This document shows, one piece after another, positions 10,440 to 42,824 of a stretch of 64,000 nt of DNA. Both the position numbers and the translations under genes were made by a program. The stretch is from Carcharhinus amblyrhynchos. Lineage: Eukaryota. The notes under the pieces are model-generated. The model saw only the letters and a program-made list of their open reading frames with translations, had not been told where the DNA came from and searched no databases. Each line of letters starts with the position of its first letter. Within the stretch, counting starts at the first letter, position 1. The stretch covers positions 41,106,001 through 41,170,000 of the forward strand of contig OZ336872.1 in NCBI GenBank assembly GCA_965287045.1, written 5' to 3'.

Positions 10440-10661
10440 ATTTACACTCTGGTAGAGCCGGCCCATTGTGTCACATGCAGGTGCTGGATTGAACAGGTTG
10501 AGTGCTGCAGACAGACAGTAGGCACCACTTAGACATAGAGCTGTGCTAGGATTGGAGTTGCCAGGGCCTTATCTGGAGCCACCCCCAGTGACACATATAC
10601 TGCTGTACAGTTTGACTTTCACTGTTCTCCAAGGGCTTGCAGAACACCTTTCAGGGAAAAA
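10440..10661 (+). promoter_or_regulatory. Putative promoter/5'UTR of the MITF 1H-type exon
   Basis: Non-repetitive sequence directly upstream of the 1H ATG. Contains E-boxes CACATG (10472) and CAGGTG (10478), NK-type CACTTA (10526) and GATA site CTTATCT (10568). The stretch TTTGACTTTCACTGTTCTCCAAGGGCTTGCAGAACACCTT resembles the human 1H 5'UTR as recalled. Confidence 0.6.
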
Positions 10662-10717
10662 ATGGAGGCTGTTGGAGTGCAAATGTTCAGACCATGTTCA
10701 TTCCAGAGCTTTTACGT
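10662..10717 (+). CDS. mitf: MITF alternative first exon, 1H (heart-isoform) type; coding part
   Basis: ATG at 10662 reads MEAVGVQMFRPCSFQSFY+GT, followed by a consensus donor GTAAGT (10718-10723). It closely resembles the human MITF-H N-terminus MEALRVQMFMPCSFESLYL as recalled. The 56 coding nt end in phase 2, matching the phase-2 acceptor of the exon at 45254 (GT|C = Val). Confidence 0.88.
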
Positions 10718-12414
10718 GTAAGTACTTTGTAACTTTTAAGAAGTTTCTAACTGAAAAGTTAAAAACAATTTTTTCTACTCGTAAATACGTTAAGGCAAGA
10801 GCTCTACGGGGGGAAAAAAAAGCAGGTTGTGAGAGTTTAAAGATCACTCAGAATCTGCTTTATGATTATTTCCATTCCCAATTTGCCAATGTATTGCGAA
10901 CGGATTTTTAAAAATTTAAGACCCCTTCGCAGTTTTGTGTTTTACTTGACTCTGATCATTTATGATTACTTCTTGTTCCCAAATCTTTTAGATTGTCCAG
11001 TAAACGTGTCTGTACACAACACATTACATTCGTCAGTGAGAACAAAGCTAAATATAAATATTTAAATACATTGGTGTGAGCTCAAAAATCTCAAACATTT
11101 CAACTAGCTGTATAGTAATGTCTGCAAACTTGCTTCAACCTTTGTGTTGCATCCGATGGTAAAATAGTAAAGTTATAAAAACTGGACATTTCTGGCAGCT
11201 AAAATGTGAAGATGTATCATTTGGATCTGAGGATACCTTGTCAAGCACGTGCTCATTTTGGAACATGAAGATTTACAGCATTTTTTTAATACTTTGCCAT
11301 GCTGGAGCCGAGAAATTCCAAGTATTTGTCTTTAAATAAAAGAGTACTGAAGCGAATCATCATTGTGGCCGTTTATTAAGTTCAAACTGAAGCAAATATC
11401 CAGCAGTTCAACTTATTAATTATTTACTGAGTAGTCATGGGTCAAAAGAGAAGGTTTTCTTGAACGAAATTAACATCGTCTTGTGGTGGTAAGGTTCCAG
11501 TGATTGTGTTGGGATTTGTATCAAAAAATAGCGCAAAACAGAAGTATGCCATTACTATCTAGATTTTTTTCATTGTTGTGGCACTTATCAGAAGGCGAGA
11601 TATGATGTTTGAAGTTTTTAGTAAATAAGTAGTTGTTTAAGAAGGAGCTTAAACGTGAATTATAGTTGAACCAAAAGTATCACTGTGAAGGAAAATGTCA
11701 CATGCTGCCATGTGTAATTGGAGTATTAGAATGTAACATTTATACAACTTTTCCTCCAGAATAAACCAAATCACCATGTTAATATTTGTACTCCTGGACC
11801 TTTTTTATGGGCAATAACAACACTTTTTTAATGAAAACCTCCAAGTTTTAGTCTCATGTTTGGTAGAGGTTTGCTAAACTAATGGCATTGATGTAAAGGT
11901 GAGCCGTTTTAATCTTTAATTATCAGAAAAAGGCTGTAAGTCCTCACCTGTGGTTATTATGCACTTCATCCACCTCCAGTGTGTTGTCTGCCATTTCCAC
12001 TAGGTTTATTGGCAAAGACACAGACATTTTACCTTAAATGTGTTAAACTAAATGTTTCTTATTAATGCTGCAGCAGGCTCTTTTTGAACAATGAAATGTA
12101 TTTTCAAACACACAACGCAGGACTGCAGAAATGATCTAAACGCCATTTATTGCTGACAGCAATTTTATATGTTGCACTGTCACAGTCAGTATGAACAGTT
12201 TGTATCCATTGTGGTAATTTATTAATACCTTCCTGCTGTTGATTTTTGGCCTGTCTAGAAATTGAAACCTAGAAAGCTGTCTGCTGAAATAACTAGATAT
12301 TTTCATTGTGTTTCAGCAGTTGTTAGTTTAACATCCAGTAATTAATCTGATATGGTGAGATATCAGAAGGTGACTTTAAAACAAATTGGTAACGTTAAGT
12401 AGTCTAATGTTCTT

Positions 12415-13320
12415 TGGGTGATTCTCCAATCTCATTGTGCCTGGCGCGGATCCCAGAGAATAGTGCATGGGTCTAAAAATCAGTTTTGCACCCACTGCCA
12501 AACAGTTTGCAATTCTCCCTTCTAAGGGCACGAACTGGATCGAACCCAGAAAGGGTGCAAGGCAGATTTGCATGAGATTGACTGGATTTTGATCTCATTA
12601 GCTAGTTTGGCACCCAAAGCTTTTCCTTCCCAGAATGTTCTCACCTCTGCGGCGAGTGGACACACCAGTGTCAATCACTACTAGTCTCGACTAGCGGAGA
12701 CCTGGCACGATGGTCACGCTGGAGGACCTGGGGGCCGTTAAAGTGTGGAAGGGGGCATTGTCAGGCAGTGCCCACCTGGCACACTGGCAATGCCCATCAG
12801 ACAGCCTGGTAGTGGCCACCAGACAGCTGGCACTGCCAGTCTGTTGGGGCAGTGTTGAGAGGGTAGGACATGAGTTGCGGGCATGATGGGGGTTGTGCAG
12901 GCGGGGGGAACCGACCAGGGTTTGTACCGAGCTGGATCATTAAGATAGTCATGAAAGCAGGTGGGGTCAAGAGTAAGGCAGGCTGACTCACCAGGATGAC
13001 CCTGATGGCCAATGACCCATGTCAGGGAGGGGTTGGGGGAATGTGGTGCTGATAGGATGGTGTGGGGAGGGAGTTCTGATGTCTGTGGGAGGGAGGGGGT
13101 CTCCCAGTGCACTGAGATCTGGCCTTGCAAAATGGTGCTCAGAATACAGGATCATGGATGTATTTAGCCCCCTCCCCAGTAGCAGCATGCAACCTCCAAC
13201 TTTCCAGAAAAGTGACTGAATGTGGGAGGATTGCATTCTGGAGCATCCTGAGAAACCATTGCAGATTGCTCCGTTATTTTCACCGTTAAGACCCTTAAAA
13301 TGTTTGGGAGATTCTGCTCC
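12415..13320. mobile_element. GC-rich non-autonomous DNA transposon (MITE-like)
   Basis: Ends GGGTGATTCTCC.../...GGGAGATTCTGCTCC form an imperfect TIR. The GC-rich interior with gtgcc/ggcac motifs resembles the elements at 42825 and 55273. Confidence 0.6.
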
Positions 13321-15354
13321 TTGTTTCTCAGTTAATCTCTGTGCTGTGTCAAGATGAAGGTTATCAATCCTGGAGAATTGACTAGTTTTCTCTAACTCCG
13401 TCGTCAGACATTCCTAACTTTCCACTTCCCATTGCAGCTGGGGCTCCTTTAGCGATATTGGCAATTGGTGCTATGATATGAGCACTTTTTTGTTGTGACC
13501 TTGGGTGTATTTTTAAATGATTTAAAGGAAACTACATAATTTTTCTTTGCAAGTTTTTAAACCTTAATGCTTTGATTAATTTTCATGTTACTTTCAGCTT
13601 CAAAACTGCATATTTTCCAGATGAACAGTAGGCAATTAATTTCATGCAAATAGGTAGCAGTAAATATTGAGATATAGATGTAGTAGAGATGTTTTTCAGT
13701 GTATTGTTGGGAATGATTCACATCTTGTCCCTTGCAGCTTTCTAATCTGAAGGCTAGATCCAGTGGTACCATGTGCCCGCTGGTTTGCAGTGGGTGAAGG
13801 GGAGTTACAGAACTGGAGAGTAGGTACAGTCCCCATTTCCTACTGGGCGCAGTTTGGTTGTTTTCTACATTTGGTGGACTGACGTACTTACAGTCATAAA
13901 GTGCCAAATTTAATGCAGAATATTTAAATAAAAACCTACTGCAATTAGCTTCATGCCATACATACTGCTTTCCTTCCTTCAAACTGAAGCAAGAGAAGCC
14001 TTTTAGATTACTGGAAGATTTATCTTTTATTGGAAGTTTTCCTTTTCTGTCAATGATTTAGTTAAAAGTGACTCTATATCCTATTGTTTTATGGAAGGGG
14101 AATCAAAACCAAGTATTGTCTTTAAGTGTGGTACAGTTATGGGGAATAATTGGACTAGAGTGTGCAGTTGCAATGCCTTTACCATTTTGAAGTCATATAG
14201 TCTGCCTTTCCTTAATTGATCTGCAGCAACGACACTTAGAGCCAACATTTAACATGAGATTACCACTTCTAGCGATTGACAAGATCATCACTGCCACCAA
14301 TCGTTGACCCAATTTTGGCTACCATCTCAAAGCTAATTCATGTACTATCTGCACCAAACAGATGACTGATATTTGATAGTCAGTGTGTGCTGCCATCTTT
14401 CTCACTGAAATACATAATGTAGCTGCTGCATTTCCAAAAGTATTGGAAGGAGCTAAGTGGAATATCATTGAGGATTGTCGTTTTCATCCAGCATTGCAGT
14501 CGGTGATCATATTTGTAATAACAGTTTTATATGCAAAGTTGTGGAATGTGTGTCTGGTTAGGTACGTTGCATCGTAACAGTGTGCTGTGCTGAGGCCTTA
14601 ATTTGCATAATTGAAAAGGAACTTTGCATACAAAATTATGTGTAACTTAGTCAACAGTGCTTTATTGCTGTAGAATTTTGGGCTAACTACCATCCACACT
14701 ATTAATTACCAAATTCCCTCAATGTGTTATCTTGTTTTATATCTATTCTCAGATTTGAACTCAGTGAACCCCGTTACTGAATCTAGTTATTATTTCCTGG
14801 TAGGCATGGCGCTAATTGCTGCGGAATGTTTCAATAAGGGGAACCTTCTTGTGGTCACAAGTCCTTTTGCCCAATACTGTGCTGCACCATGAGTTTCCCA
14901 CAGATTTGTTTTGTGCCATGTTAGATTTATTTCTTATTGATCTCACCCAACACTTCTTCCTTTGGATTTGATTACTTTTTGTTTTCTAACAAGTACCAAC
15001 CATTTTAAGGGGCTGCATCTCTCTACATTTAAAAGGACTGTGTGCTTATAATAGATTATTATGCTAAGTCACATTCCCTGTTCAAGTTCTAAGTGGCACA
15101 GGATGTGATTGGCTGTCAATTAGACTTATAGAGTCTGGTGAAACCTGTTCCATTGACATCGAACTTGGGACTCTGATTTCTAGCCAAGGATCTTGAATAA
15201 AGCCTTGGAAGCAAATTTTCTTTAGGTACCAAGATTAAGCATAAAATGATTAATGGACAAGCATTAAGCCATTTGATTTTGAATTGTGGATGTAGTTGTA
15301 GGGAGGATATGGATAGTTTTATCTTTGAGCAGTAGGGTAAAATGAGCAATACTG

Positions 15355-16942
15355 TATAAGAACATAGATAGGAGCAGGAGTAGGCCATCTGGCCCTTGAG
15401 CCTGCTCTGCTACTCAGTAAGATCATGGCTGATCTTTTTGTGGACTCAGCTCCACTTACCTGCCCACTCACCATAACCCTTAATTCCTTTACTGTTCAAA
15501 AATTTATCTATCCTTGCCTTAAAAACATTCAATGAGGTAGCCTCAACTGCTTCGCTGGGCAGGGAATTCCACAGATTCACAACCCTTTGTATGAAGAAGT
15601 TCCTTCTCAACTCAGTCCTAAATCTGCTTTCCCTTATTTTGAGGCTAGTTCTAGTTTCACCTGCCAGTGGAAACGTCATCCCTGCTTCTATCTTAGCTAC
15701 TCCTTTCATAATTTTCTATGTTTCTATAAGATCTCTCTTCATTCTTCTGAATTCCAATGAGTATAGCCCCAGTCTCCTTAGTCTCGCCTCATAAACCAAC
15801 CCTCTCAAATCCAGAATCAACCTAGTGAATATCCTCTGCAACCCCTCTAAAGTGCTAGTATATCCTTTCTCAAGTAAGGAGACCAAACCTGTATACAGTA
15901 CTCCAGGTGTGGCCTCACCAGCACCTTATACAGCGGCAACATAATCTCACTGTTTTTCAACTCCATTCCTCTAGCAATGAAGGACAAAATTCCATTTGCC
16001 TTCTTAATTACCTGATGCACCTGCAAATTAATTCCTTGATATTCCTGCACAACTCCTTGAGATTCTGTGCCCCTCTGCACAGCAGCATGGTGCAATTTTT
16101 TACCATTTAAATAATAGTCCATTTTACTGTTATTCCTACCAAAATGAATGATCTCACATTTATAAACATTGTATTCCATCTGCCAGACACTTGCCCACTC
16201 ACTTAGATTATCTATATCCCTTTGCAGAGTTTCAGTGTCCTCTGCACACTTTGTTCTTTCACCCATCTTAGTGTCATCTGTGAATTTTGACACACAACAC
16301 TTGGTCCCCAACTCCAAATTATCTATGTAAATCGTAAACAATTGCGGTCCCAACACTGATCCCTGAGGCACACCACTAGTTACTGATCGCCAACCAGAAA
16401 AACACCCATTTGCACCCCCTCTTTGCTTTCTGTTAGTTAACCAATCTTCTATCCTTGCAAATACATTACCCGAAACACTGTGCACTTTTATCTAATGTAG
16501 CAGTCTTTGGTACGGCACCTTGTTAAATGCCTTCTGGAAATCCAGATACACCACATCCACAGGTTCCCCATTGTCCACTGCACATGTAATACTCTCAAAG
16601 AATTTCACCAAATTAGTCAAACATGACCTGCACTTCATGAACCCATGCTGCGTCTTACCAATGGGACAATTTATATCCAGATGTCTCGCTGTTCCCTTGT
16701 TGATGATAGATTCAAGCATTTTCCATATTGCAGAAGTTCAGCTAACCTCCTTTATATCTACCTCCTTTTTTAAACAGCGGCGTCACATTTGCTGTTTTCC
16801 AATCTTGGGAGCCACCCCAGAGTCCAGCAAATTTTGGTAAATTACCACTAATGCATTTGCTATTTCTCCTGCCATCTTTTTTAGTACCTTGGGATGCATT
16901 CCATCAGGACCAGGAGACTTATCTACCTTTAGCCTCATTAAC
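15355..16942 (-). mobile_element. 5'-truncated CR1 LINE (RT domain plus 3' tail), relatively young
   Basis: ORFs 16492-16719, 15847-16485 and 15446-15709 give QHGFMKCRSCLTNL, VDVVYLDFQKAF, SGVPQGSVLGPQLF, KFTDDTK, RPHLEYC and RVVNLWNSLP; tail GGCCTACTCCTGCTCCTAT..GTTCTTAT. Confidence 0.95.
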
Positions 16943-18924
16943 TTATTTCATTGTCTTATACGCCTCGCTCATTTAAGTCACTGGTCAGGCAACTTCTTAA
17001 GGTCTATAACAAGTGAATGATGTGAAATTATCATAGTGTTTTAGTGCCAAAGTTAAAATTTCCCAACTTTAAATTGATTTAAAATGTTGATGCTCCCTGA
17101 ACAGGCAATTTTATTTGATAACACTGATAAAACACCCAAAATATGAGAAATAGAATCTAAAAATATTCGCAAGCTTTGCCTGTCATGTATCCATTTTTCA
17201 TGTTAATTAGTGATGACGATAGCTATCTAAAATAAAACTATTATTTTACTGATATGTAACAGTGATTCAAAATTAATGCTTAATCAGCAAATCACACACA
17301 AACTGCTACCTGTTTTTTGCATCAAATTTTAATTTGACCCTGTGCTAATGTCAATACAGAAAGCAGTGATGTTACAGCAGAATTAGACTCATAGCTAAAA
17401 CAAGAACCAACAATAGAAATAATTTTGATCCACAACTGTGTCTTTCCCTTGATTGCATTGTTCCCCAACCAATTTTGGCTTTAATGTTGAAAGTTTGTAT
17501 GAAATACATTTTGACTAACTGGTTGATCTCACTTGACATTGTTCATGGATATTTTGGGATTTGGACACAGGTTTGTGATGTCTGTTGCAGTTCTGTTCCT
17601 GACCAGAGAGGGTAACAAAGTGCAGCACCCAGGGTTTGGAACGCCGTGTGGCTGGAGATCAGCGTACACACTTTGAAATTAAAACTAATAATATTAAAAG
17701 AGTCAGGAGTTACCTGTTTCATTACAACAAATATTAAACCAGTGCTGATTTAGACAATACCTTCAATAAACTCATGGACCTAATCATTTAGGCAGAAATA
17801 TGGGACATGAGTTGTACATTCTTAGAGAAACAGGAATAGGAGGGAAACAAGTTTAAAAACTTGCTGATTAAACTAGTCTCTATATTCATAGCTGTACTAT
17901 TTTAGTATGAACCAACTGCTGAGTACGTCATCAGTTACTTCTAGGATCTGTCCTATGCCCAAGTATAATGCAATTTGTACAGTGGGTCATGGACCTAATG
18001 TTGTGGCAAACTATTAGTGCATATATATCGTAAATCTACTTTAAATGCGAACATTTGGCTGTCAAGATGATGATGAAGATGCTAATTATTGCTATTTCTA
18101 ACCTTCACATTTTGGAACAAATTGCAAGGCCTACTTACCAAAGGAATAGGCTGTCAACAATGAAAAGAACATTTCATTAAATCCCACAAAATGTAGTCAA
18201 ACTTGTTTCATTTTAACGATCTGGCCTGCTGTTGCTCTTGGAAAAACAGATAGGCATACTGGTATCAGTGCTACTCAAAGGGTGTCCCCTGTTTTACCTT
18301 GAAAATGCTGGTTTTAGTCAAACACTTATTTTACATTCAGATAAAGGCAAGGAATCATAAAATCAGGGATGGGAGGGGGCTGGGTGGGTGGTACAAATTG
18401 GGTCTGACCCATTTCAAAGACTTGAAACCAGATGCTTTCACCACATATAATTGTGTAAATAATTGTTGATTGGCAGAAGCAGAAACCTGAGCTTCATTTA
18501 ATTCCTGAGTAAACACAGTCTCCCATGCAGCAAATAAAAATCATGCCATTGATCATATATGAGATATTCACCAAACATTAATGAGCAGGATATGGTTTCT
18601 CTTTTTTACAATTTCCAGTGTTCATAATGCCAAGGTGTCCTGTTTCTTTTTCAGGTTATCTTTTTAAATTTTTATCTGTGCGGCAAGTTTATCTGCTTTT
18701 CTTTCTGATATATTTATAAAAATATAAATACGCCATGCAGTTTAAAAGTTGTTGCACGAATATGGGAACTGTGGCCTATTGCACTGATGTATATAGGGTA
18801 GTAGCTCCACGTATTTTTCGGTGAAGAAATTCAAAGCCACCTTGTTAACTCATGCTTTTAGTGCTTAACAATATAGCATGTACACAGACCTGACCACCTG
18901 AGATTCTTCATTATATTTTAGAAG

Positions 18925-19205
18925 TAAAGTTTATTTATTAGTCACAAGTAGGCTTACATTCACACTATAATGAAGTTACGGTGAAAATCCTCTGGTCACC
19001 AAACTCCAGTGTCTGTCTGGGTACGCTGAAGCAGAATTTAGCATGGCCAATGCACCTAACCTGCACATCTTTGGATTGTGGGAGGAAACCCACACAGACG
19101 CAGGGAGAATGTGCAAACTCCACACAGACAGTGACCCCAGCGGGAATCAAACCTAGGTCCTTGGTGCTGTGAGACAGCAGTGCTAACCACTGTGCCACCG
19201 TGCTG
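18925..19205 (-). mobile_element. tRNA-derived V-SINE (HE1-like head/core, alternative tail)
   Basis: Minus strand: CACGGTGGCACAGTGGTTAGCACTG, core GTGTGGAGTTTGCACATTCTCC, tail CCGTAACTTCATTATAGTGTGAATGTAAGCCTACTTGTGACTAATAAAT. Confidence 0.9.
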
Positions 19206-19225
19206 TGAAGGATCTTCCTAATATC

Positions 19226-19410
19226 CAAGGAAATCTGCCGTCTTTACCTGGTCTGGCCTACACTTGACCCCAGATCCACACCAATGTGGTTGACTCTCAG
19301 CTGCCCTCTGAAATGGCCTAGCAAGCCATACTGTAAGGGCAACTATGGACAGACAATAAATGCTGGCCTGCCAATGATGTCCATGTCCCACGAACAGATT
19401 AAAAAAAAGT
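19226..19410 (+). mobile_element. 3' half of the SINE family seen at 6395
   Basis: GGAAATCTGCCGTCTTTACCTGGTCTGGCC...GAAATGGCCTAGCAAGCC..AATAAATGCTGGCC, ending in an A-rich run. Confidence 0.75.
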
Positions 19411-19737
19411 CAGCAGCCTGTTTGCTGGTTGGTGGCCCCTGATCTCTTAACCTCAGCCCTATAGTGATGTCACCGCATCATACTTAATGAAATAATGAAA
19501 TGAGCTGCCCTTCCCTTCAAGTTCTTCTACACAGCTAGCATTGGATTATTGTTCACCACATGTGCAAGGAGTGTCAATATCTGCTAACCCAGCCAAGCAA
19601 CGTTCCTTTTCACAGAAGTTCTTTGGTTAGTACAGCTATTGATAGTTTGAAAACTGATTTTCTGATTATGACATTGGATCTAAAAATGATGGAAGTTTGC
19701 TGCGAAATGTGAATCAGTTAATTTGGTGAAAACTTTC

Positions 19738-21630
19738 CCACATAGAAGCAGGAGTAGGCCAGTTGACTCCTTGAGCCTGCTGCACCATTCAACTAGATTA
19801 TGGCTGATCTTCTAACTCAGTGCCGCTTTCCTGTAATATCTTTATTCTATATTTAGGATAAATAGATCCCTAAATATCTTTAAGATCTAGAAATCTATTC
19901 ATTCTGTCCTGAATGTACTTGATGCGTAAGTCTCTACAGCCCCCTGGGGTAGAAAATTCCAAAGAAATATTGCCTCACCTCATGACCTTGTCTGTTATTG
20001 TGAGACCTTGTTCCTAACTTTTACACCTCAGTCAGGGGAACATATTTCCTGCATCTACTCTATAGAGCCCTGTAAGAATTTTATGTGCTTCAATGAGATC
20101 ACCTCTCATTCTTCTAAACTCTTGTGAAATATAGGCCTCATTTTCTCAATCTCTCCTCATAAAACAAGCCCGCTATCTCGGGAATCAGTCTGGTGAATCT
20201 TCATTGATCTCCCTCTATGGCAAGTGTAATGTCCCTGAGGTAAGGAGACAGAAACTGCACTTGAAATCTAGGCACTGTCTCTCTAAGGCTCTATATACTT
20301 GCAGAAAGACTTCTTTACACCTGTATTCAAATCTTCTTACAATCAAGGCCAACATACCATTTTCCTTCATAGTTACTTGCTGTACCTACATATTAGCTTT
20401 CAGTGACTTGTGAACAAGAACCTCCAGGTCCCTTTGGACACCAACACTTCCCAATCCCTCATCAGTTAAAAAATATCCTGTTTTTATTTGTCCCATCAAA
20501 GTGGAGCATTTCACATTTTTCCATGTTATATTTCATCTGCCATGTTGTTGCCTACTCACTTAGCTTGTACAATTCCCTTAAAACCTTTTTGCATCCTCCT
20601 CACAACTCTCATTCCCACCCAGTTTTTGTATCATCAGCAAACTTAGAAATATTACATTTGGCATCTACATCCAAAAGATTGATATAGACTGTGAATAACT
20701 TAAGGACTGATAACTTACAGTAATTCACTAGTCACAGCCTGTCAAGCTGGCAATGACCCATTTATTCCTACTCTCTCTTTTCTATCTGTTAACCAATTCT
20801 CAGTCCATGCCAGATCACCCCTGTCCCATGTACTCTAATTTTGCTCACTGACCTGTTTGAGAACTTTTTGAAAGCTTTCTGGAAATCCAAATGCATCTCA
20901 TTCACTGGTTCCCCCTTCTGCTAGTTACATCCTCAAAAAAAACTGAAACAAGTTTGTCAAATATGATTTTCTTTTTGTCCAAATTGATTCTGTCTATTAT
21001 TTTCTAAGCATCCAGTTATCACAACTTTTATAATAGATTCTAGCTTTGTCCCTATTGCTGATGTCAGGCTAAACAGGTCTATAGTTCCCCACTTTCTCTT
21101 TCTCCCCTTTCTTAAAAAGTGCGTTTACCTTCCAGTTTGCAGGAACAATTCCAGAATCTGTAGATATTTGGCAGATGACCACCAACACATCCATTATCTC
21201 CACAACTAACCCTTCCAGCACTCCGTGATGTAGATAATCAGGTCCAGGAGGTTTATCAATTTAAATTCCCATTAATTTCTCCAGTAGTATTCCAGCTCCT
21301 CATTCTCCTAGTCCTATGTTTCTGTAGTATACCAGGAAGGTTTTTTATTTCTTCTCCCTGAAGACAGACACAGAGGGAGGAATTTTCCGGCCCTTCCTGC
21401 TAGCTAGCTCTTCTAGTTGTATCATAATCGACTCTCTGTTGCAGGTTATCCGCTGGTAGGGCTGGTGATCCATGCTGAAGTCCCTAAGCCTTAGTGGGAC
21501 CAAAAGATTTTGCCGGTGGCTAATGGCTCTGTAGTCACCAGAGGAAATACTGGCCAAAGTATTTGTTTACTTTCAGACACTTCCCTCTTCCCTACTATAC
21601 ATTTGGGAATCTCTGATTGTAATGGGGCCC
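19738..21630 (-). mobile_element. Older CR1 LINE fragment containing a small MITE-like insertion (~21376-21556)
   Basis: Tail CATAGAAGCAGGAGTAGGCC at the left end and RT remnants (gtatcatcagcaaactt = KFADDT on minus strand). The inner insert is bounded by GGGAGGAATTTTCC.../...GGAAATACTGGCC. Confidence 0.85.
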
Positions 21631-23783
21631 ATGTTTGGGATTCCATGAAAAGTTATAACTAATGCCATCAGTTACGACTGAGTCTTTAACAATCTGAATA
21701 TTAGTTGTTGCTCAACAGTAGACCTAGCCCAGAAAAAATGCTTTGTTTGTACATTGTTGTTAAATATCTCTTATGATTTATGAAAATTTTTAAGCTAATT
21801 GTTTTTAAATCTGATTGCATACCTATTCTTCTGCTCTGTTTTAAAAAAAAATATCTGATTATTAATACTTTGCTGCTTGGCTAGCTGTGAGAATTCTTTA
21901 GTGTGATTGGCTCCTTTGACTGCTTGATACTGTCACCTCAGCACCATGCTGGGAATCTCCAACAATAGACAACACTACGATCCATTGCATGGCATGAGAT
22001 GCAAGATCTTTCAGTAAGCTTGCTTCAAGGTCAGCAGCACACGCCCTTGCTTTGCCATTTGGAAAATCCAGATCATCATGTCACTTAATGTAAAAATATA
22101 TATAAAAGAGACACAGAGGTTTTATATGGTGCATTTATTTTGTTGGAATATATTGGTTTTATTTGAAAGTAACATTCAAGTTGATTAGTAGAAGCTGCTA
22201 ACAGATTAACATTTCTGGCGCTCCATTTCAAGTTACTCTGCTTGTAGCCAAAAACAACTGTTGTTATGGGCCTGAGCACATGGAACCTGTAGCTGTGTTG
22301 GCTTTGCCTTAATTGTTATTTAGCCCTATGCTACTACAATTCTGCACACAAGTGCTGGATAATGAACTTAACTGACATTTCCTACTAGTTACGTGACTCC
22401 TCATGAAGGGGAGGGGACATTATTTCAAGCAATTATTGTTTGGCTGTTATTCTTGCTACGAATAAAGTGGCATTCACGGGTGGTGTTAGCAATTTGATGC
22501 TTATTGCAATACTTTCTAATTGCAGGCAGTTGAAGGAAGCACTGCAAAACTCTGTGTTGGATTGTCTCATTTATGCAGTTTTTGGATCAATGAAAATGCT
22601 TTCTAAGAATTTAAAAGCTACCTTGCTATTTCAAGCATTTCCACTCTATACTGTTCCTCTTTGCCACTGAAACCCATTTGGTTCATTAATGTCCTTTAAG
22701 GAAGGAAATCTGCTGTCCTTGCTTGGTCCTGCCTACACATGACTCTGACCCACAGTAATATATTGACTCTTACATGCTCTCTGAAATGGCCTAGCAAGCC
22801 ACTCTGTTGTGTCCAACCACTGTGAAGAAAACGCAAAGGAATGAAACTGGATGGACAACACGGCACCAACCTAGGCACTGGAAATGACTATGGCAAACCA
22901 GCTCTGTCAACCCTGCAAAGTCTTCCTTACTAACATCTGAGGGCTGGTGTAAAAGTTCAGAGAGCTATCTCACAGACTAGTCAAACAACAGACTGACACA
23001 GTCATACTCGTGGAATCATACCTTACAGATAATGTCCCAGACACCATCATCATCATTCCTGGGCGTGTTCTGCCCCACCATTAGGACAGACCCAGCAGAG
23101 GTGGCAGCACCCTAGTGTACAGTCAGGAGGGACGTTTACTGGCATTCCTCAAGATCAACTCTGGACTCTGAAGTTTCATGGCACCAGATCAAAAATGGAC
23201 AAGGAAACATCCTGCTGATTACCACAGACTGTGCCCCTCAGCTGATGAATCAGTACTCCTCTGCATTGAACACCACTTGAAGGAAATATTAAGAGTGGCA
23301 AGGCCACAGAATGTTTTCTGGATAGAGGACTTCAACATCCATCACTAAGAGTGACTCAGTACTACCACCACAGACTGAGTTGGCCAGGTACTAAAGGACA
23401 TAGCTGCTAGACTGGAACTGCAGGAGGGGCTGAGAGAACCAACAAGAGGGAACAACATACTTGACCTCATCCTCACCAAGCTCTCCTACAACAGATGCAT
23501 CTGACAGTATTGGTAGGAGTGACCACCACACAGGTCTTGCGGAGGTGAAATTCCGTCTTCACGTTGAGGATATCCTCCACTGTGTTGTGTGGCATGGTTA
23601 CTGTGCTGAAGGATAGACTTCAAATAGATCTAGCAACTCAAGGCTGGACATCCATAAGGCACTGTGAGCCATCAGCAGTAGCAGAATTGTACTTGACCGC
23701 AATCTCTGATCTCATGGCCTGGCATATCTCCCACTTGACCATTACCACCAAGCTCAGGGATCAATCCTGGCTCAATGTGGAGT

Positions 23784-24011
23784 CAGTAAAAAGTCTGACA
23801 ACACCAGGTTTTAGTCCAACCGATTTATTTGATAGTAAACTCACAAGCTTTCGGGTTAGCCTCAGATAGAGGCCAGAACTCTCCATTCACCTGACGAAGG
23901 GGCTAACCCGAAAGCTTGTGAGTTTACTATCAAATAAATTGGTTGGACTAAAACCTGGTGTTGTCAGACTTCTTACTGTGTTTACTCCAGTCCAATGCCG
24001 GCACATCCACA
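23784..24011 (+). mobile_element. Short Penelope-like (PLE) insertion with an inverted 5' segment
   Basis: Flanked by a 12-bp duplication TCAATGT(G/A)GAGT (23772-23783 and 24012-24023). Arms 23784-23861 and 23901-23978 are 76/78 reverse-complementary. The 3' end AATAAA..GTTGGACTAAAACCTGGTGTTGT...CCAGTCCAATGCCGGCACATCCACA resembles shark PLE terminal repeats as recalled. Confidence 0.8.
23886..23922 (+). ncRNA. Minimal type-I hammerhead ribozyme motif
   Basis: UUCAC-CUGACGA-A-GGGGCUAACCC-GAAA-GC-UU-GUGAG: core boxes CUGANGA and GAAA, stem II GGG/CCC, stem I UCAC/GUGA, and a loopless palindromic stem III (AGCU). Predicted cleavage after 23917. Confidence 0.7.
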
Positions 24012-24404
24012 TCAATGTAGAGTGCCAGAGGGCATGCCAGAAGTAATACTGGGGATAATTAAAAATGAGATGACAACCTTTGAAGCTACAACACAGGAAT
24101 ACTTGTGCGCCAAGCAGCATAGGTAGCAACTGATAGAGCTAAGCGATCCCACAACCAAAGGATGAGATCCAAGTTCTGAAGTCCTGCCACATTCAGCCGT
24201 GAATAGTGAATGAACAGATAAACAACTCACTGGAGAAGACTCCACGAATAGCCCTATCTTCAATGAAAGAGGACTCCACATCTGTGCAAAAGATAAGGCT
24301 GAAGCATTCACAATGAACTTCAGCCAAGTGGATGATCCATCATGGCCTCCTCAGGAAGTCCAAGTTCCACAATGTCAGTTTTCAGCCAGTTTGGTTCACT
24401 CCAT

Positions 24405-24522
24405 GGCTCTGATTTTACCGGCACAGTTGCCTGAGGTTCTTAAGATCATGCCCGAGGCTAATGGGGAATGCCATTCTGCGAGCCTGGATTTTCGGAGCTG
24501 CCGTGCCAGTAAAATCAGGGCC
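24405..24522. mobile_element. 118-bp MITE-like insertion in the LINE
   Basis: TIRs GGCTCTGATTTTACCGGCAC and GTGCCAGTAAAATCAGGGCC (18/20 complementary); LINE sequence resumes on both sides. Confidence 0.7.
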
Positions 24523-26042
24523 TGCATGATATCAAACAGCTGAAGGCACTGGATACTGAAAGACTATGGGCCTTGACAATAATCCAGCAATAGTCCTGAA
24601 GACTTGTGCTCCAGAACTTGCCGTGCCCTTAGCCAAGCTGTTCCAGGACAGCTACAACATTGAGGGAACCATGGCTATCCATGCTGGCTTCTTGATTGTT
24701 CGTGTTTCTACTTCTTTTTTCCTTTTAATATTGCAATCCTGGTTCTTTTGAGTATGCCCGTTTTGTGCCTACTTCGGGTCTCTGCTTTACACATATTTCT
24801 CTCCTTTTCTTTTGAATAGGCTTTTGGTATTCTGCCAATAGTGGGGCATAAATGGTATTGTGAAACAGTTGAAGTGGCAGTAAAGGTTGATAACATCTGG
24901 TTAATGTCAACTGGAGCTCGTGTGTCCAAGTTGCTTCACTATAAAGGCTAAAACCAAGTGGAGGTCAAATCATATAAAATTGAAACAAAACACTGCGCTT
25001 TGCTCTGCTTCGCTTTCTGCTGCTGTTTTTATTGTTTTGCATTAACTTAATTACGATGATAGATTAGAAACCAGTGGGGGTAGTGAGAGGAAAATGATGA
25101 CAATGCTGAGCCTTTGCAGGTACTCAAAAATATTATACGTTACCAGTGTAACAGTTAATAATTCAAGTTTCAAGTTACATTTTGAGTTTGAATCAGTGCA
25201 GACTGCTGTGTTATTAGGGCAAGTAATAAAAACATAACTGAAATAGTGTGGGGTCAGTAAAAGTAATTTGGACGCTGCAAAGTCCTTGAAATTATTGTTA
25301 TAATGAGTATAACAACCATGGAGAGCTGAAAGTTATCTGATGCTGTTTATGGCAGAGTTGCGATTTGTCTGAAATATTTTACTTTTTCAAATTACTTAAT
25401 GGACAAAACACTTGGAATCATTTTAGAACTAGTTACAGCACAGAAGGAGACCATTTGAGCAGTTGAGGACATGTTGGCTTTCTGCAAGAGCAATTTGGCT
25501 TGTCTCACACCCCTGACTTTTCCTCATTGCCATGTGAAATGAGGAACGTTGGTAGTTTTGCTACACAGCTTCAGTGCTAATTTTAACGACAAGTTCAGTA
25601 ACTCTGACTGTGGGTCAATTTTTGTGTAATCCACAGTGATGCACTTACATTTGTTTTGTGTTATACAATAGGATGATGTAAACTTTATACAAAGATGTAC
25701 CAGGGTTTAAAACAAGAGGTAGCTGGAGCAATGACTATATTGTTTTTCATTTTTAGCTCTTCCTAATTTGCAGTAATATTTCCAGAAGTTTACATTATTC
25801 CTAATTTAATTTTGACTAAATTTTACAAAAAAAAGCAAATTTACAAATCCCCTCAATTTTCAACAATCCCCATGCTTTTTCCATGCACATAAAGATTTGG
25901 TTGTGTGCATCTTTGAGCTTTACCTGGAGATAGCATCTGATGGGACCTGTTGTGTTTATCCTTGTGTCTTTAAGTATGCTACCAAATGATAAGTCCAATT
26001 AAATTTCAAAAATGATAACTCTTCAATTACTTCATGCTTCGT

Positions 26043-26326
26043 GGGCGGCACGGTGGCACAGTGGTTAGCACTACTGCCTCACAGCACCAGGGACCTGGGT
26101 TCAATTCCTGGCTTGGGTGACTGTGCGGAGTCTGCATCTTCTTCCTGTGTCTGCGTGGGTTTCCTCCAGGTGCTCCAGTTTCCTCCCACAGTCCAAGGTT
26201 AGGTGCAATGGCCATGCTAAATTTTCTCTGTGTACCTGAACAGACACTGGCATGTAGTGACTAAGAGATTTTCACATTACAGTGTTAATATAAGCCTACT
26301 TGTGACACTAATAAATTTGAAACTTA
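26043..26326 (+). mobile_element. tRNA-derived V-SINE (HE1-like head/core, alternative tail)
   Basis: GGGCGGCACGGTGGCACAGTGGTTAGCAC..GGTTCAATTCC, core GCGTGGGTTTCCTCCAGGTGCTCC, tail GTGTTAATATAAGCCTACTTGTGACACTAATAAA. Confidence 0.9.
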
Positions 26327-26934
26327 AATGTTTAGCAACCAGGTTCCTCCATTCCTCCTGATTTTGACTTATTTCTTTACTATGTCCGGATGTACTCTAT
26401 CAACCACTCAAACTAATTCAAAGCAACTGCTGTGGAGAAAGAAATTTGGAATAGATTGCTAGCAGGCTCTTTCACCCAGAGAATGTCAGAGAGCCTGGTT
26501 TTAGATTTCCTCTCTGATGTCAAGGGACATAATAAACTTTCAAAAAAAAAGGTTATACAGTAGTAAAATAATAAAACATTCTAAGTAAAATCAGATTGGA
26601 AAATTTAAATTGCAGAGTCAGTGGAAAAATAACTCCATATATTTGTTCCTGTTGTGAATTTTATGACGTGGTAATTTCCCCTGATTTTCACATGGAAGAT
26701 CTCTCTCTCTCTGTCTCTCATTTCCCTGCCTCAACTTTTACTTTTGTAGGCAACTGAAAAATTTAAGGGTAAATTGGGGTAAAAACAGAAAATCTTGAGT
26801 ATTATTTAACAACGTATGGGCATATCCCTCCCGATGTTTTTTTCTTGAAAAAGTATAAATTATATTTTCACAGTTTGCTCCCTTGGTTTATGCATGGGTG
26901 TAAAAATTCATTAGTCATTAAAGAGATTGAGAGA

Positions 26935-27585
26935 CCATGGGTTAATAAAAGTATCCAGCATCCTTAGCTTTATCAACAGGCATTCAGAAGCAAGGAAATT
27001 ATGTTAAACTTAGGGAAAACACTGGTTCTGCCTCAACTGGGGTATGTTACATCCAGTTCTGGATGCCATAGTTAGGAATAATGCAAAGGCAACAGAGCGG
27101 GCACAGAAAACATTCACAAAGAATGCTTCCAGCTCAGAGAAACTTCAGTACTGTTGTTAGATTGGAGAAGTTGGGATTGTTTTCTTTGGATAAGGCAAGG
27201 TTGAGAGGAGATTTAAGAGGTGTCTGGACAGAGTGGATAGCCATTAAAAAGCATGGCATGAGACCAATTGAGTCGTTGTATTCCATCTTCCTGATTTTAG
27301 AGGCAATTTTCTGAGGACTTGGTACAGATTTAAGATAATTGGCATGAGAAGCAGTTAAGCACTCACTGCATAAAATAATTTCTTGTTTCTTAAGATCTGC
27401 AATGCACAGCCTGAGGGTGTGGTGGAGGCGGGTTCAATTGAGACATTTAAGAGGGAATTAGATAATCGTCTGAAAGGGAAGAATGTGCAGATTAATGGGG
27501 AAAAGGCAGACAAATGGTACTAGTTGAATTACTCAGAGAGCCAGTACGGAATGGTCTCCGTCTGTGCTTTAACCATTCTGTGATC
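26935..27585 (+). mobile_element. Old CR1 3' fragment
   Basis: RLEKLGLFSLDKARLRGDL in ORF 27081-27314, followed by a decayed CR1 3' tail. Confidence 0.75.
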
Positions 27586-29499
27586 TTCGGAAGATTGTAG
27601 ATAAGTAGGTTGTATGTGTGGAAGAGGGAATGCCAACAATTGTAAATGTAGCTTTAATCATTTGGAACATTCTTCAACCATAGATGTTCCCCCAAAACTG
27701 TTGCATTGTCATGACAATTGTAGGTTTAGTGGACACCTTGCTCTCTCAGCCTGGGCCTCAGGATGTCCGAGCACTCCTTGCATTAAAACAGGAAACACTA
27801 AGACATTGAATGGTCTCCTTAATCTCTCTTACGTACATGTCCCTAATAAAACTCCTTTGTAGCTATTTTATTTGAAAATAGCGAGAACCTGTACATGCCA
27901 TAAACCTTCCCATATGTGTGGGGTACAACTGCATTATTGTTAAAAGAGCTGAAATGAATCATTTTACAGCACCCAAACTGTAACGACGCAAACTATCTAT
28001 GTTATATAGCATTTAAAATCTACATTCCTATCAATTAATGAGTAAACTTTAAACTTTGAATGTTCCATTGGAGAAAGAGTTGGAAATTTTGTTACCTGAC
28101 AAAAATGGAGTTCCAATGCTGATTCATTTTAGAAGAGCTATTTATGAGTTGGGAATGGCAATCAGAAACAATGCAGCCTGCGTGCATATGGTGCTGACCT
28201 TTGTTGTGCCAGAGGCACAGCCAGAAATTAGTGGAGCAAAGCAGAGGTCAGATTCTTCTGTTAACAAAACACGCATTTCTCATTCTTTCCAGAAGTATCT
28301 TAAAAACGTATCTTGCCTGAAATGCAAATTTTGACTATTGAATTGCATTATGGAGTTCCAGGTCTTTGGGGTGAGGGGAGGGGAAGTCTGTGGCATGGGA
28401 AGGTGATGTTATGAAATTAAAAGCAGTATGCTACTTCAGATGAAATATTTTCATATATTTTGAAGAACGGAACTCCATCCGTATTGCAACATTATCCTCG
28501 GTAATGACAAGTTCTTGTTATACTTAGGGTTTAACAGCGGAGGAGGGATGGGTAGTTGTGGTTGTAGTGTTGTAGTGTATGTTCTACTATTTTTGCTAAT
28601 GGAAATAGTAACGTGGCCAGCACAGTTTTTCAGGCTCCTGCTATGCAAGTGCACTTTACCTTCTGATCTATGCTGTCAGAGTTTTTATTTTCATTTTTGT
28701 GTGACAGTAATAAGTACCTCTAAAAATGTAATACTTTTGTAGCCATACTTAAGTGGCACTATTTGTATTTACAGTAGGACCCCAGCTTGTTTTATTGAGC
28801 TATGTGTAAACATTTCATGGCAGTTATAGTGTTTTGCATTATCAAGTTAGACCTTCATATTGGCTGCTGTGTAAACACTGTAAATATTAGAAGCTGCAAC
28901 TTCAGAACAATGTGACCTTCAGCAAAAGCTTTTTGTACTCTCTGAATTCTGCAAGTCTAGTTGTGCATGAGATTTGCCCTTGAAGGTGGCGTGTAAGACA
29001 TTGTTAACATTGGTGGTCTCAAAAAAAATTGGCAGATTCAATCTGGTTCAACTTGGATTGCTTTACTAAATCTTTAAAAATGCATATGCTTTGGAAAGGC
29101 TGTACTGTATTTGTTCCACTCATAGACACATTTGCTTCTGTTAAAAATGGATGCCTAATATTAATGATATGAAATCTACATCCAGCTTTTTAAGATTATA
29201 CTCTATTTCCTCCTGTATTATCCTGTGGGACATGCACAGTTGTTTTGCTTGCTGTGCCATTCTGTGACAGCAACGGTTCGAGAAATCGTCATAGATATTT
29301 GCACACTGTCTCCATGTTGCTCTCATTAGTGTGAGGATAGTAGCTGGTGTTTCTTTTTAACTTTGCACATTGTATTTATTCTTTTGACTGAAGGAATTAG
29401 AAAATAAATTTCCATGTCCCCTTAAGGTGAGATTGTGCAGCTGTCCCATGGCTACTCTAATTGTTTGGAAGTTTGTAAGGCCAGCCCAGTATTTATTTA

Positions 29500-29800
29500 C
29501 GTTTATTCTGGGGATCCGACAGCACCTTTGGCAAAGACAGCATTTATTGTCCATCTGTAATTGCACTGCAGGAAGTGGTGGTGAGCTGTATTTTTAAACC
29601 ATTGTGATCCATGTGATGAAGGGGATCTCACAATACTTGTTAGGTAGGGAATTTGAGGATTTAACTATGATGATGAGAGAATATTTTAGTATTCAAATTT
29701 AGGATGTTGTGTGACTTGGAAGCAAATATGGAGGTAATTGTGTCCTCATCTGTCTTCTGCCCTTGCATTATTAAGTGGTAGAGATTGAGGGTTTGGGAAG
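29500..29800 (-). mobile_element. Decayed LINE 3' end (family of 8495)
   Basis: gcatttattgtccatc..taattgc...gtggtggtgagctg is the reverse complement of the shared tail. Confidence 0.6.
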
Positions 29801-31074
29801 TATGATTTGGCTTCATATTATTCCATGCCCTTTTCCTTACTTCCTAGCTGAAAAAGTGTGGAAATGGATTAGGAAAGGTTTGGAAAAGAGTGGTAGCATT
29901 CATTCCAGGCCTCCAATGTCTAGGGAGTGCTTTTGGATGTTAGACTGAGGCATGCTTCAATGCCGCAGGACATCTGAAAATGCTTTACAACCATGAAGTA
30001 GTTTTGAAGTGTTGTTCACAGTTGTAGTGAAAGAAACACAGCAGCCAATGGCGTGCAACAAGTGCTTGATAGTTATACAATGATGAACAGTACTATTTGA
30101 CTTTCTTAAGTGGAAGGAAGGAAGAACTTATTTTCAAAATTAAGGGATTATCAGAGTTGGGTAAATGGTATGCTAAATAGGCAGTGTAAAGACCACTTTA
30201 AAATATTGCACTTTTAAGTGTGATACTTGGGATGACACAGGTATTGACAGACCATAATAATGAACTTGGGATTGCCAGATTTAGCTGCCAAGAGTCTGGC
30301 ACATGAGACAGTGACTCCTCTATCATTCAGTACGATCATGGCTGATCTCACTGTGGCCTTAACCCTGCGGCACCTACCCAACCCATTCTCCTTAATTCCC
30401 CTGTAGACCAAAAATCTGCCTAATTCTCCTTTGTCTGATTCTTCCAGATCCTGATTTCCTGCTGCCCTTGAACCTCGTCTTCTAGGAATCTGATTGCTGA
30501 TATTGCTTATGGCCAGACATGTGCATTTTGAATTACTGCTCAACAGTAACTTTAAAGCCAGGTCCTCAGTGTGGTCCACCCCAAATGGTAGTAGTGGTGC
30601 TAATGGTACTGGTAACCCAAACTTGTAACTTTAATCCCATTTTACTTTACATTCATTCATGCATTCTTAAATTGCTTCTCTCAGTTTCTATTTCTCTGTG
30701 CTGATTTATTTTAGTCCTTTCTATGCGTCCTTTCCTTTTTACAATGGTTCCTTCTATTACTACAACAAGAAGATATTTACATCTCTGTCCCTAGACAGAT
30801 TTCTGGCTCTTCGACTATAGCTCACCCTCTGGCTAGGTTGCAGACTTACTGTCTGATTCCAGTTTGCTCAGGTTAGACTGAACCTCGGCTTCTCTGGCGC
30901 CCTCTCCAGGTCCTATTAGTACATTGAATGGCTTCAGTTACACTATGGAGATGTTCAGTGAAACAGTATATATTTTTTTCTATTGAGCACAACTCTCTTC
31001 CTGACCAGTGAGAGATTGGATAGGTCACATCTTCAATAGCATCAGATCATCATTTCCTCATCTGGGAAGGGGAG

Positions 31075-32386
31075 AGATTTTAAAGTGATTTATATAATAT
31101 GTGTCATTTGTCAACCAGTTATGAGATGCAAACTATCCTTATCGGAACACATTCAGCAATGCCTCTGGCCTCTACTGACCAACCTTGGTTCACGGTCTCC
31201 TAATGAATCTTATTTAAAGTTCTCATTCTTGTACTTTTATGACTTCACCTCCTTATGTCTATAACCTCTTCTAGCTTACAATCTCCACTTCCTCCTCTCT
31301 CTCTCTCTCTCTCTTTCTCCCCCCCCCCCCCCCCCACCTCCCCCAGCCCAAAGAAAGACTCAATAAAATAGCTGGCCTGAAGGCACTTGATTCAGATGCA
31401 CTCAGAAAGTGATACAGGAAAATTGTCCAGCTGCTGTCTGAGACCAAGAAACCTATCCAGCAACAGAGTCTATATTGGAATATCAATGATGACATCAACA
31501 ATAATATTGGATGAAAGGTTCCTATGTCGATCGTGATCCAGTTCAGAAATTGGAGTCACAAGCTATGGCTATGGCATCCGTGGAACTGAGATTGAATTTT
31601 GACAGCTGGAAGGCCCCTTTAATTTTTTTTCTTTTTTTTCTGATAGTGGGCATGGCTTAATAATCTGGTCTCTGAGGCCCAATTTCTGATCCAACCAGAG
31701 CCTGTAAATTGGTGGGTCTTTTTTTTGTGTACACCCTGCTTTTTCAACATGTCGGCCCCTGGTCAATAACTCCCCTTGCCCCGCTCAACAATCTTAAGTA
31801 TCCTTCTATCCCCTAACAATCCCCAGGGTTTTACTATGGGGCCACACAAAATCTGTAACATTCAAATGGGGTCTCATTGGGAAAATCTTTGGGAAGCACT
31901 ATTACAGAGTATCTGTTAGTGGGAGGAAACTGTCTTGAGGTGCTTCACGGAGGCAGGAGTTAAATTTAAGCAAATCTAGAGATCATTTGATGTGGTCAGA
32001 TGCTTGTTCGAAGAGGTAGTCCTGATAAAGGAGCCGCTTGATGGAAAGGCAGAGGAGTTCGGGGGGGTAATTCACTTCCTTGGTTCTGGACAGTTGAAGG
32101 CATAACTGTCTGCGGCATGATAAAAAGAAACATAGATGTAGAGACTGGGCTCAAAGTAAATGAAGATTTGGGCATGGTGGGGAGGATTGTAGGCTAGAAG
32201 AGGTTATAGACATAAGGAGGTGAAGTCATAAAGTATAATAGTGAGAACTTTAAATATGAGACATGAGGAGACCATGAACCAAGGTTGCTCAGTAGAGGCC
32301 AGAGCATTGCCGAATGTGTTCCAATAAGGATAGTTTGCATTTCATAACTGGTTGACAAATAACATGTATAAATCACTTTAAAATCT
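31075..32386. repeat. Local inverted repeat: arms 31075-31283 and 32185-32386, spacer ~900 bp
   Basis: For example atgacttcacctccttatgtctataacctcttctag and ctagaagaggttatagacataaggaggtgaagtcat are exact reverse complements; similarity extends over ~205 bp with small indels. Confidence 0.92.
31288..31345. repeat. (CT)n microsatellite plus poly-C pyrimidine tract
   Basis: ctctctctctctctctctctttctcc followed by a long C run. Confidence 0.9.
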
Positions 32387-35300: not shown

Positions 35301-35552
35301 GTTATTGCTCAGGAATAATATATTATTAGAATTATAAATGATGGTACACTGCTGTTGTGTGATACAGTATTAGTATTGACAGGACCTACAGCAACTATGG
35401 TTTGATTTTGTGACAATCTTTGACCCAAAAGCAGTAATAATGATCAATAACAAAAGTAACAGAAAACAGCAACAATCCCTGGGAAATCTGTAATTGTTTT
35501 AAAAATGATTGGAAAAGAAATTTAAAAGTTTGTGTAAATTGCAAAGGGGTCA

Positions 35553-35720
35553 ACCATAGAATCCCTACAATGCAGCAGGAGGCCATTTCGTCCATCAAGT
35601 TAGCACTGACTATCTGAAAGAGCATTTTACCCAGACTGCCATTCCACACAGACAGTTCCCAAGGTTGGAATTGAACCCATTGTGAGGCTGCAAGGCTAAC
35701 CACTGTGCCCTGATGCTGCC
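35553..35720 (-). mobile_element. Internally deleted HE1-like SINE
   Basis: Tail accatagaatccctacaatgcagcaggaggccatt and head gctaaccactgtgcc. Confidence 0.65.
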
Positions 35721-42790: not shown

Positions 42791-42824
42791 AGGTGTTGCA
42801 AGTTAATCACACAAAGTTAGTTGT

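What the first reader, a model, noticed from the sequence alone, without database searches (positions are those of the whole stretch)
10662..10723. Hidden 56-nt exon: a mammal-like MITF-H first exon in a shark
Seen: ATG..MEAVGVQMFRPCSFQSFY-GT|GTAAGT, too short for the ORF track and phase-compatible with exon 1B1b 34.5 kb downstream. Known: MITF uses alternative first exons spliced to 1B1b, and the heart-enriched H isoform starts MEALRVQMFMPCSFESLYL in human (recalled). Inference: the H promoter, exon and peptide predate the chondrichthyan-osteichthyan split and are under purifying selection, implying an unexplained function for this short N-terminus (conserved VQMFxPCSFxSxY).
Basis: partly seen in the sequence, partly recalled or inferred. 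Interest (0 to 1): 0.75.

Follow-up and report, generated by a model that had tools for sequence, protein, structure and literature searches.

The report
Shark MITF exon 1H, confirmed spliced
This shark has a spliced copy of the mammalian "H" first exon of the gene regulator MITF, whose start region is 93% identical to mouse in two blocks and whose short peptide is moderately conserved, likely giving a longer-lived form of the protein; databases already predict this form in other sharks and rays.

Summary
The exon is real. ATG 10662, 56 coding nt and the GTAAGT donor are as described. In 4 of 4 likely-RNA runs (4 studies, 3 organisms) a contig leaves the window at the donor and continues into exon 1B1b at 45254. 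The exon is at least 194 nt, because it carries a 5' leader. It is the orthologue of mammalian 1H: same 56 coding nt, phase, donor, partner exon and collinear leader as mouse. RefSeq already predicts this N-terminus, unnamed, in chimaera (19/19 identical), sharks, rays, bony fishes and tetrapods.

Two refinements. The strongest conservation is non-coding: 91/98 nt identical to mouse in two promoter/leader blocks, against 36/56 in the coding part. The peptide does show protein-level constraint (11/17 third versus 2/18 second positions differ), but the proposed motif fits only 9 of 29 taxa; the core is P-C-S-F.

Likely role: a tissue promoter that yields a Rag/mTORC1-regulated MITF lacking the A-isoform degron. 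Heart expression in shark and any peptide function are untested.

The parts
10479..10537 (+). Proximal promoter, collinear with the mouse sequence upstream of exon 1H; holds a 12-nt identical block (10506-10517) with two tandem CAGAC boxes (SMAD-element-like, motif recalled)
   Evidence: By-eye comparison with mouse annotation: 40 of 59 nt identical, no gaps; the annotated mouse 1H start maps to about 10532
10524..10717 (+). Exon 1H as far as RNA contigs cover it (true 5' end not determined)
   Evidence: contigs from 10524 (X16), 10540 (X15), 10645 (X20), 10648 (X17)
10538..10595 (+). Conserved non-coding block 1, with a WGATAR site on the minus strand at 10569-10574 that stays WGATAR in mouse
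   Evidence: 53 of 58 nt identical to mouse (by eye). Independent support: 5'-extended bird and bear protein models match translations of this DNA in two different frames. It lies just upstream of the annotated human 1H start.
10611..10650 (+). Conserved non-coding block 2 in the 5' leader (22-nt perfect run, 10629-10650)
   Evidence: 38 of 40 nt identical to mouse (by eye); also matches the human S1 row and two pig primers labelled exon 1H
10662..10717 (+). Coding part of exon 1H: 18 codons plus 2 nt (19-residue H peptide after splicing)
   Evidence: 19/19 identical to chimaera XP_042195667.1
10694..10717 (+). Alternative-frame ATG (ACC-ATG context) giving 8 codons and a phase-0 end at the same donor; in frame with exon 2 if 1B1b is skipped
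   Evidence: S. canicula model XP_038666569.1 (P0125) begins with the matching peptide joined to exon 2. This junction was not tested by RNA here.
10718..10723 (+). 5' splice donor GTAAGT (same hexamer in mouse)
10718..45253 (+). Intron of 34,536 nt (about 11.1 kb in mouse, about 13 kb in human by the annotated join positions)
45254..45503 (+). Exon 1B1b. Its Met at 45306 aligns with TFEB Met1 and is followed by the SR..QL Rag-binding residues.
   Evidence: 5' end shown by RNA, 3' end inferred from homologous proteins

Best explanation
This is the shark orthologue of MITF exon 1H, a first exon spliced to exon 1B1b, and it likely works as a tissue-controlled promoter that makes a MITF predicted to stay under Rag/mTORC1 control while lacking the N-terminal degron of MITF-A, so likely longer-lived. 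Shown: the exon, the junction, the orthology, conservation of promoter and leader at DNA level, conservation of the peptide at codon level, retention of the Rag-binding residues in 1B1b, and absence of the ESGIVxD stretch from the H peptide. Inferred: transcription factors (GATA-type, perhaps SMAD) bind the conserved blocks; expression is enriched in heart or retinal pigment epithelium as in mouse; the isoform is more stable; the P-C-S-F core acts as a weak short linear motif that tunes this behaviour.
For: Junction in 4 of 4 runs. Same coding length, phase, donor and partner exon as mouse, with a collinear leader. Non-coding blocks 91/98 identical against 33/53 in the coding part without the start codon, Fisher p 8e-6 (from by-eye counts). 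Coding differences fall at codon position 3 (11/17) rather than 1 (7/18) or 2 (2/18), p 0.008 for 3 against 1+2; about 9 of 9.7 synonymous and 11 of 43 non-synonymous sites differ. Codons 11-14 (P, C, S, F) all differ synonymously from mouse. The leader does not fold unusually (z 0.15) and has no Rfam match, which favours DNA-level elements. ESGIVPD is present in the two A-type N-termini tested (shark, camel) and absent from the two H-type ones. A degron in the MITF-A amino end is reported second-hand; a degron-less, Rag-competent TFE3 isoform from an alternative start is a direct precedent. 1B1b confers Rag binding, and the needed residues are in human isoform 2 (H).
Against: No tissue, protein or stability data for any shark. 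That ESGIVxD is the degron is recalled; the primary paper was not held. Rag binding was tested for MITF isoforms 1 and 7, not H, in the passages read. The DNA comparison is one species pair, made by eye, on 56 nt, with a fast-evolving rodent. The two leader blocks were delimited after seeing the alignment, so their p value is optimistic. Goding and Arnheiter state there is no direct in vivo evidence that different N-termini or leaders have specific roles, and Mitf-H compensates for loss of 1D. Motif matches are not evidence of binding.
Confidence: 0.62

Rival explanations
1. The H peptide has a dedicated biochemical function of its own, such as a docking motif or a modifiable cysteine (S-acylation or redox) in the P-C-S-F core, and this is the main reason the exon is kept.
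For: PC is kept in 26 of 29 taxon rows and in mouse and human. Four consecutive synonymous-only differences lie across P-C-S-F against mouse. The peptide is 19/19 identical to chimaera while 1B1b is 73/83. Residues 1-12 are identical in 8 of 9 chondrichthyan rows and in lungfish.
Against: Cys is lost in bichirs and goose, Pro in herring; in-frame deletions occur in passerines and the coqui frog. Mouse keeps only 9 of 19 residues. In 20 of 21 taxa compared the peptide is less conserved than 1B1b, and exon 1A is better conserved (28-33 of 34 in 9 comparisons).
Confidence: 0.27
2. Peptide similarity is only a by-product of DNA or RNA constraint (promoter, start context, splice signals) spreading over a short exon; the peptide is a neutral in-frame spacer.
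For: The non-coding leader, read as a pseudo-peptide, is as similar to bear (28/43) as the real peptide is (12/18 without Met), Fisher p 1.0. Radical substitutions are common.
Against: Synonymous sites in the coding part are close to saturated against mouse, while the leader blocks differ at 7 of 98. DNA-level constraint would hold third positions too.
Confidence: 0.1
3. A chance ATG-donor pair in an intron.
For: 10 donors upstream of 1B1b fit the same pattern.
Against: RNA junction in 4 of 4 runs; orthologous models across jawed vertebrates.
Confidence: 0.01

Closest known systems
Mammalian MITF exon 1H / MITF-H (isoform 2)
   Same: 56 coding nt, phase 2, GTAAGT donor, spliced to 1B1b, collinear leader (134 nt in mouse), 13/19 residues shared with bear and 9/19 with mouse
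   Different: Intron about three times longer; G-V-Q-M-F-R in place of the mammalian R-V-Q-M-F-M; an open alternative frame to the donor that mouse lacks (no ATG at that place); tissue pattern unknown
RefSeq predicted chondrichthyan MITF isoforms (XP_042195667.1 chimaera, XP_067907639.1 horn shark, XP_078399823.1 basking shark, XP_060691679.1 epaulette shark, XP_059800299.1 stingray)
   Same: Same N-terminus, 16-19 of 19 residues, same join to 1B1b
   Different: Named only 'isoform Xn'; not labelled H and not experimentally characterised in the records seen
TFE3-S versus TFE3-L (PMC12852735), and TFEB
   Same: An alternative start yields an isoform that keeps Rag/mTORC1 regulation and lacks the N-terminal phosphodegron; TFEB Met1 aligns with the 1B1b Met
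   Different: TFE3-S and TFEB begin at or near the Rag-binding Met; MITF-H adds 36 residues in front, 19 of them isoform-specific

Membership tests
MITF exon 1H | Lies in MITF upstream of exon 1B1b | tested here: met
   The downstream exon is 81-100% identical to MITF 1B1b in the top hits; exon 1A and exon 2 are not in the window
MITF exon 1H | Spliced directly to 1B1b, in frame | tested here: met
   4 of 4 runs; frame open
MITF exon 1H | Own start codon and H-type peptide | tested here: met
   First ATG of the covered exon; tblastn E 1e-18 to 1e-5 with H-type N-termini; human residues 1-15 and mouse peptide read
MITF exon 1H | Homologous leader and promoter DNA | tested here: met
   53/58, 38/40 and 40/59 identity to mouse, by eye
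MITF exon 1H | Own transcription start (true first exon) | tested here: inconclusive
   None of the 4 contigs has an upstream loose end, and two begin at 10524 and 10540, either side of the mapped mouse start (about 10532); the tool states that contigs cannot show a start
MITF exon 1H | Heart-enriched (and RPE) expression | not testable with these tools
   Run tissues not on record
Rag-regulated MiT/TFE isoform | SR..QL residues after the 1B1b Met | tested here: met
   MTSRILLRQQL at 45306; residues defined in PMC3575543
Rag-regulated MiT/TFE isoform | Binds active Rag GTPases and is held in the cytoplasm | not testable with these tools
   Needs cell assays
Structured RNA element in the leader | Unusual folding or an Rfam match | tested here: not met
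   z 0.15, 108 of 200 shuffles fold as well; 0 Rfam matches at E<=1; the hairpin over about 10622-10646 loses two pairs in mouse (by eye)

The most novel reading that the evidence does not exclude
The P-C-S-F core of the H peptide is an isoform-specific switch as old as jawed vertebrates (for example a modified cysteine that sets lysosomal recruitment or stability), which would be the first specific function for a MITF first-exon peptide other than the A degron. In sharks the exon is also dual-coding: skipping 1B1b and starting at the alternative-frame ATG makes an M-like, Rag-independent MITF from the H promoter.
Probability: 0.2. Interest if true: 0.68.

Novelty: new member of a known kind. 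Interest (0 to 1): 0.36.

Why it matters
[quoted passage not shown] This comparison dates exon 1H to at least the last common ancestor of jawed vertebrates and narrows the targets: two non-coding blocks (58 and 40 nt) and a four-residue core. The fish paper read here describes only exons 1a, 1b and 1m (PMC3677685), yet H-type models exist in bichir, sturgeon, gar and herring. The existence of the isoform is not new to databases, so this is a refinement, not a discovery of a new system.

Tried and rejected
No genome is held for the window, so exon 1A, 1M and exon 2 could not be mapped; none lies in the window.

Two metagenome scans for orthologous DNA found 0 matches each, so no alignable DNA of other species was obtained and dN/dS rests on one by-eye pair.

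The run search listed no holder on record as RNA. Of 6 runs guessed to be RNA, 4 were laid (X15, X16, X17, X20); X18 and X19 were not. One low-depth X16 contig at 9741-9788 (48 nt, loose at both ends) was ignored as an unrelated match.

An RNA-structure role for the leader was not supported. No informative repeats lie near the exon. The bacterial promoter scan is irrelevant to this organism.

I first leaned to pure DNA-level constraint, from the pseudo-translation match to bear, and dropped it after the codon-position count.

No H-type N-terminus appeared among the listed cluster members for coelacanth (4 of 4), alligator (4 of 4) or monotremes (10 of 10, most unrelated fragments); the herring-seeded search returned only herring and gar among 4 candidates. 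These blanks do not show loss. Lamprey, hagfish and the paralogues TFEB, TFE3 and TFEC were not searched for an H-like exon.

Earlier scan findings: none. No structure or complex was predicted.

Literature: 10 searches listed no paper describing exon 1H in cartilaginous fishes. The library lacks most subscription papers. Nardone 2023, Altschmied 2002 and a cardiac MITF paper sought by a recalled DOI were not held. Hallsson 2007 on Mitf evolution (recalled) was not looked up and may already cover non-mammalian 1H.

Full report
OBSERVATION. The sequence is as described: ATG at 10662 in a strong context, 18 codons plus 2 nt, donor GTAAGT at 10718. The acceptor AG ends at 45253 and the next exon encodes MITF 1B1b, 83/83 identical to basking shark and cloudy catshark models. 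The spliced frame has no stop. The pattern alone is weak: 10 distinct donors upstream of 45254 have an open phase-2 ATG frame.

SPLICING. One search listed 24 runs, none on record as RNA and 6 guessed to be RNA. I laid 4 of the 6 (X15, X16, X17, X20; 4 studies; organisms F, G, A, A) on 9600-11800. Each has one contig on the exon. Three leave the window at 10717, and their 30-letter loose end equals window 45254-45283, which occurs once in the window. X16 leaves at 10715 because its last two exon bases differ, then continues into the same 1B1b start. No contig enters the intron. Contigs begin at 10524, 10540, 10645 and 10648, so the exon is at least 194 nt; the 138 nt before the ATG hold no ATG. 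Contigs cannot give the start site, strand, level or tissue.

DISTRIBUTION. A search with 1B1b returned 545 proteins, 120 listed. Two region searches and two cluster look-ups brought the total held to 287. From these I picked by eye one H-type row per taxon, 29 rows, dropping duplicates and near-duplicates: chimaera, 5 sharks, 3 ray rows, lungfish, bichir, sterlet, paddlefish, gar, herring, coqui frog, 2 lizards, 2 turtles, 6 birds, 3 mammals. The chimaera peptide is 19/19 identical to the window's. These are predicted models named 'isoform Xn'; the isoform is therefore in databases but not labelled H.

ORTHOLOGY. Supplement S2 of Goding and Arnheiter 2019 (PMC6672050) gives annotated mouse exon 1H. 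Compared by eye, it has the same 56 coding nt, the same donor hexamer and the same partner exon. Upstream, window 10479-10537 matches at 40/59 without gaps, 10538-10595 at 53/58 and 10611-10650 at 38/40; a poorly alignable 15-nt stretch separates the two blocks. The mouse start maps to about 10532, between the two longest shark contig ends. The annotated human start maps to about 10600, so block 1 is promoter in the human annotation and leader in the mouse one. Tool-made support for DNA-level conservation: 5'-extended bird models match this DNA in two frames (12/12 and 10/12 residues), a bear model matches 28/43 pseudo-residues, and a herring model 10/18. The shark leader has stops in the frames running into it and no ATG, so it is non-coding.

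WHAT IS CONSERVED. Two signals separate. Non-coding blocks: 91/98 identical to mouse. Coding part: 36/56. Coding differences lie at codon positions 1, 2 and 3 in 7/18, 2/18 and 11/17 sites (p 0.008 for 3 against 1+2; p 0.002 for 3 against 2). About 9 of 9.7 synonymous and 11 of 43 non-synonymous sites differ (from by-eye counts). Codons 11-14 all differ from mouse synonymously. So the leader is held at DNA level and the peptide at protein level. The protein constraint is moderate. Mouse keeps 9/19 residues, goose 8/19 and herring 10/19; the peptide is less conserved than 1B1b in 20 of 21 taxa. Apparent invariance of residues 1-4 is partly built into how I located the rows. All length changes are in frame, but models are selected for an open frame. 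Limits: one species pair, 56 nt, blocks delimited after the fact.

The leader shows no unusual fold (z 0.15) and no Rfam match. A WGATAR site at 10569-10574 differs from mouse only at the W position. Two tandem CAGAC boxes lie in a 12-nt identical block; block 2 holds an ACTTTCACT stretch resembling IRF/PRDM1 sites. These motif names are recalled, and binding is untested.

MECHANISM. In mouse, 1A is ubiquitous and 1H accumulates in heart; 1B1b allows lysosomal recruitment and mTORC1 phosphorylation; no in vivo role is shown for the different N-termini or leaders. H and D isoforms matter in the retinal pigment epithelium. The Rag-binding residues are present in human isoform 2 (H), though binding was tested for isoforms 1 and 7. 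They are present here after Met 45306, which aligns with TFEB Met1. A degron lies in the amino end of MITF-A (citing Nardone 2023, which I could not read). The ESGIVPD stretch, which I recall as that degron, is in both A-type N-termini tested, including a shark's, and in neither H-type one. TFE3 uses an alternative start to make a degron-less, Rag-regulated, constitutive isoform. I therefore infer that exon 1H is a tissue promoter producing a more stable, still nutrient-gated MITF (0.62). A dedicated function of the P-C-S-F core as the main reason is the chief rival (0.27). A neutral spacer is unlikely (0.10).

SIDE FINDING. A third ATG at 10694, in another frame, reads 8 codons to the same donor in phase 0. 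A small-spotted catshark model (XP_038666569.1) starts with the matching peptide joined to exon 2, which implies skipping of 1B1b. The main ATG would then be out of frame, so this may be an unproductive transcript with the longest frame chosen by the annotator, or a minor M-like isoform. Mouse has no ATG at that place. All 4 contigs here show the 1B1b junction, and contigs drop rare forms.

NOVELTY. New member of a known kind. Ten searches listed no paper on exon 1H in cartilaginous fishes, but the library lacks most subscription papers, and the review already notes blocks of exonic and non-exonic homology across vertebrates.

PAPERS SEEN. PMC6672050: passages, section 5 in full, supplement legends, part 14 of 25 of S2, search rows of S1 and S2. 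Passages only: PMC3575543, PMC12852735, PMC11467436, PMC11257520, bioRxiv 2024.07.24.605021 (31; its supplements are closed and were not seen), PMC3677685, PMC6002570. Passages with nothing bearing: PMC13201563, PMC4450477, PMC3407046. Not seen: Nardone 2023, Altschmied 2002, the cardiac MITF paper, Hallsson 2007 (recalled). The organism is a shark by protein similarity; the species was not determined.

VERDICT. Observation confirmed, interpretation partly supported, interest 0.36.

Noticed in passing
window 10694-10717: Alternative-frame ATG in exon 1H, in frame with exon 2; a S. canicula RefSeq model (P0125) begins with the matching peptide joined to exon 2, implying 1B1b skipping.
   Followed up: partly
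window 11504-11524: 6 of 7 residues similar to the short first exon of S. torazame isoform X3 (P0122), 0.8 kb past the H donor; the window has TTG for the ATG, no donor at the matching place and no RNA contig there.
   Followed up: partly
proteins P0130, P0271, P0287, P0197, P0277 (not located in the window): A tiny 5-6 residue first exon spliced to 1B1b recurs in horn shark, sawshark, electric ray, paddlefish and herring models; possibly another old alternative start. Three pattern searches did not find it in the window.
   Followed up: partly
proteins P0010, P0014, P0022, P0284 (not in the window): A basic cassette exon of about 15 residues between 1A and 1B1b in sawshark, skate and chimaera models, with a longer insert in electric ray; no match in the window.
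   Followed up: partly
proteins P0124, P0126, P0285: A further short first exon joined directly to exon 2 (M-T/K-T-N-x) in basking shark, catshark and electric ray models, besides the 1M-type one; not found in the window.
   Followed up: no
   Followed up: no
window 10470-10478: E-box TCACATG, an M-box-like site (motif recalled), just upstream of the conserved promoter; a possible autoregulatory site, not matched in mouse by eye.
   Followed up: no
window 52715-52927, 56516-56759, 58698-59497, 63079-63525: Intronic reading-frame fragments that look like decayed LINE/CR1-type or other retroelement reverse transcriptase pieces (resemblance recalled).
   Followed up: no
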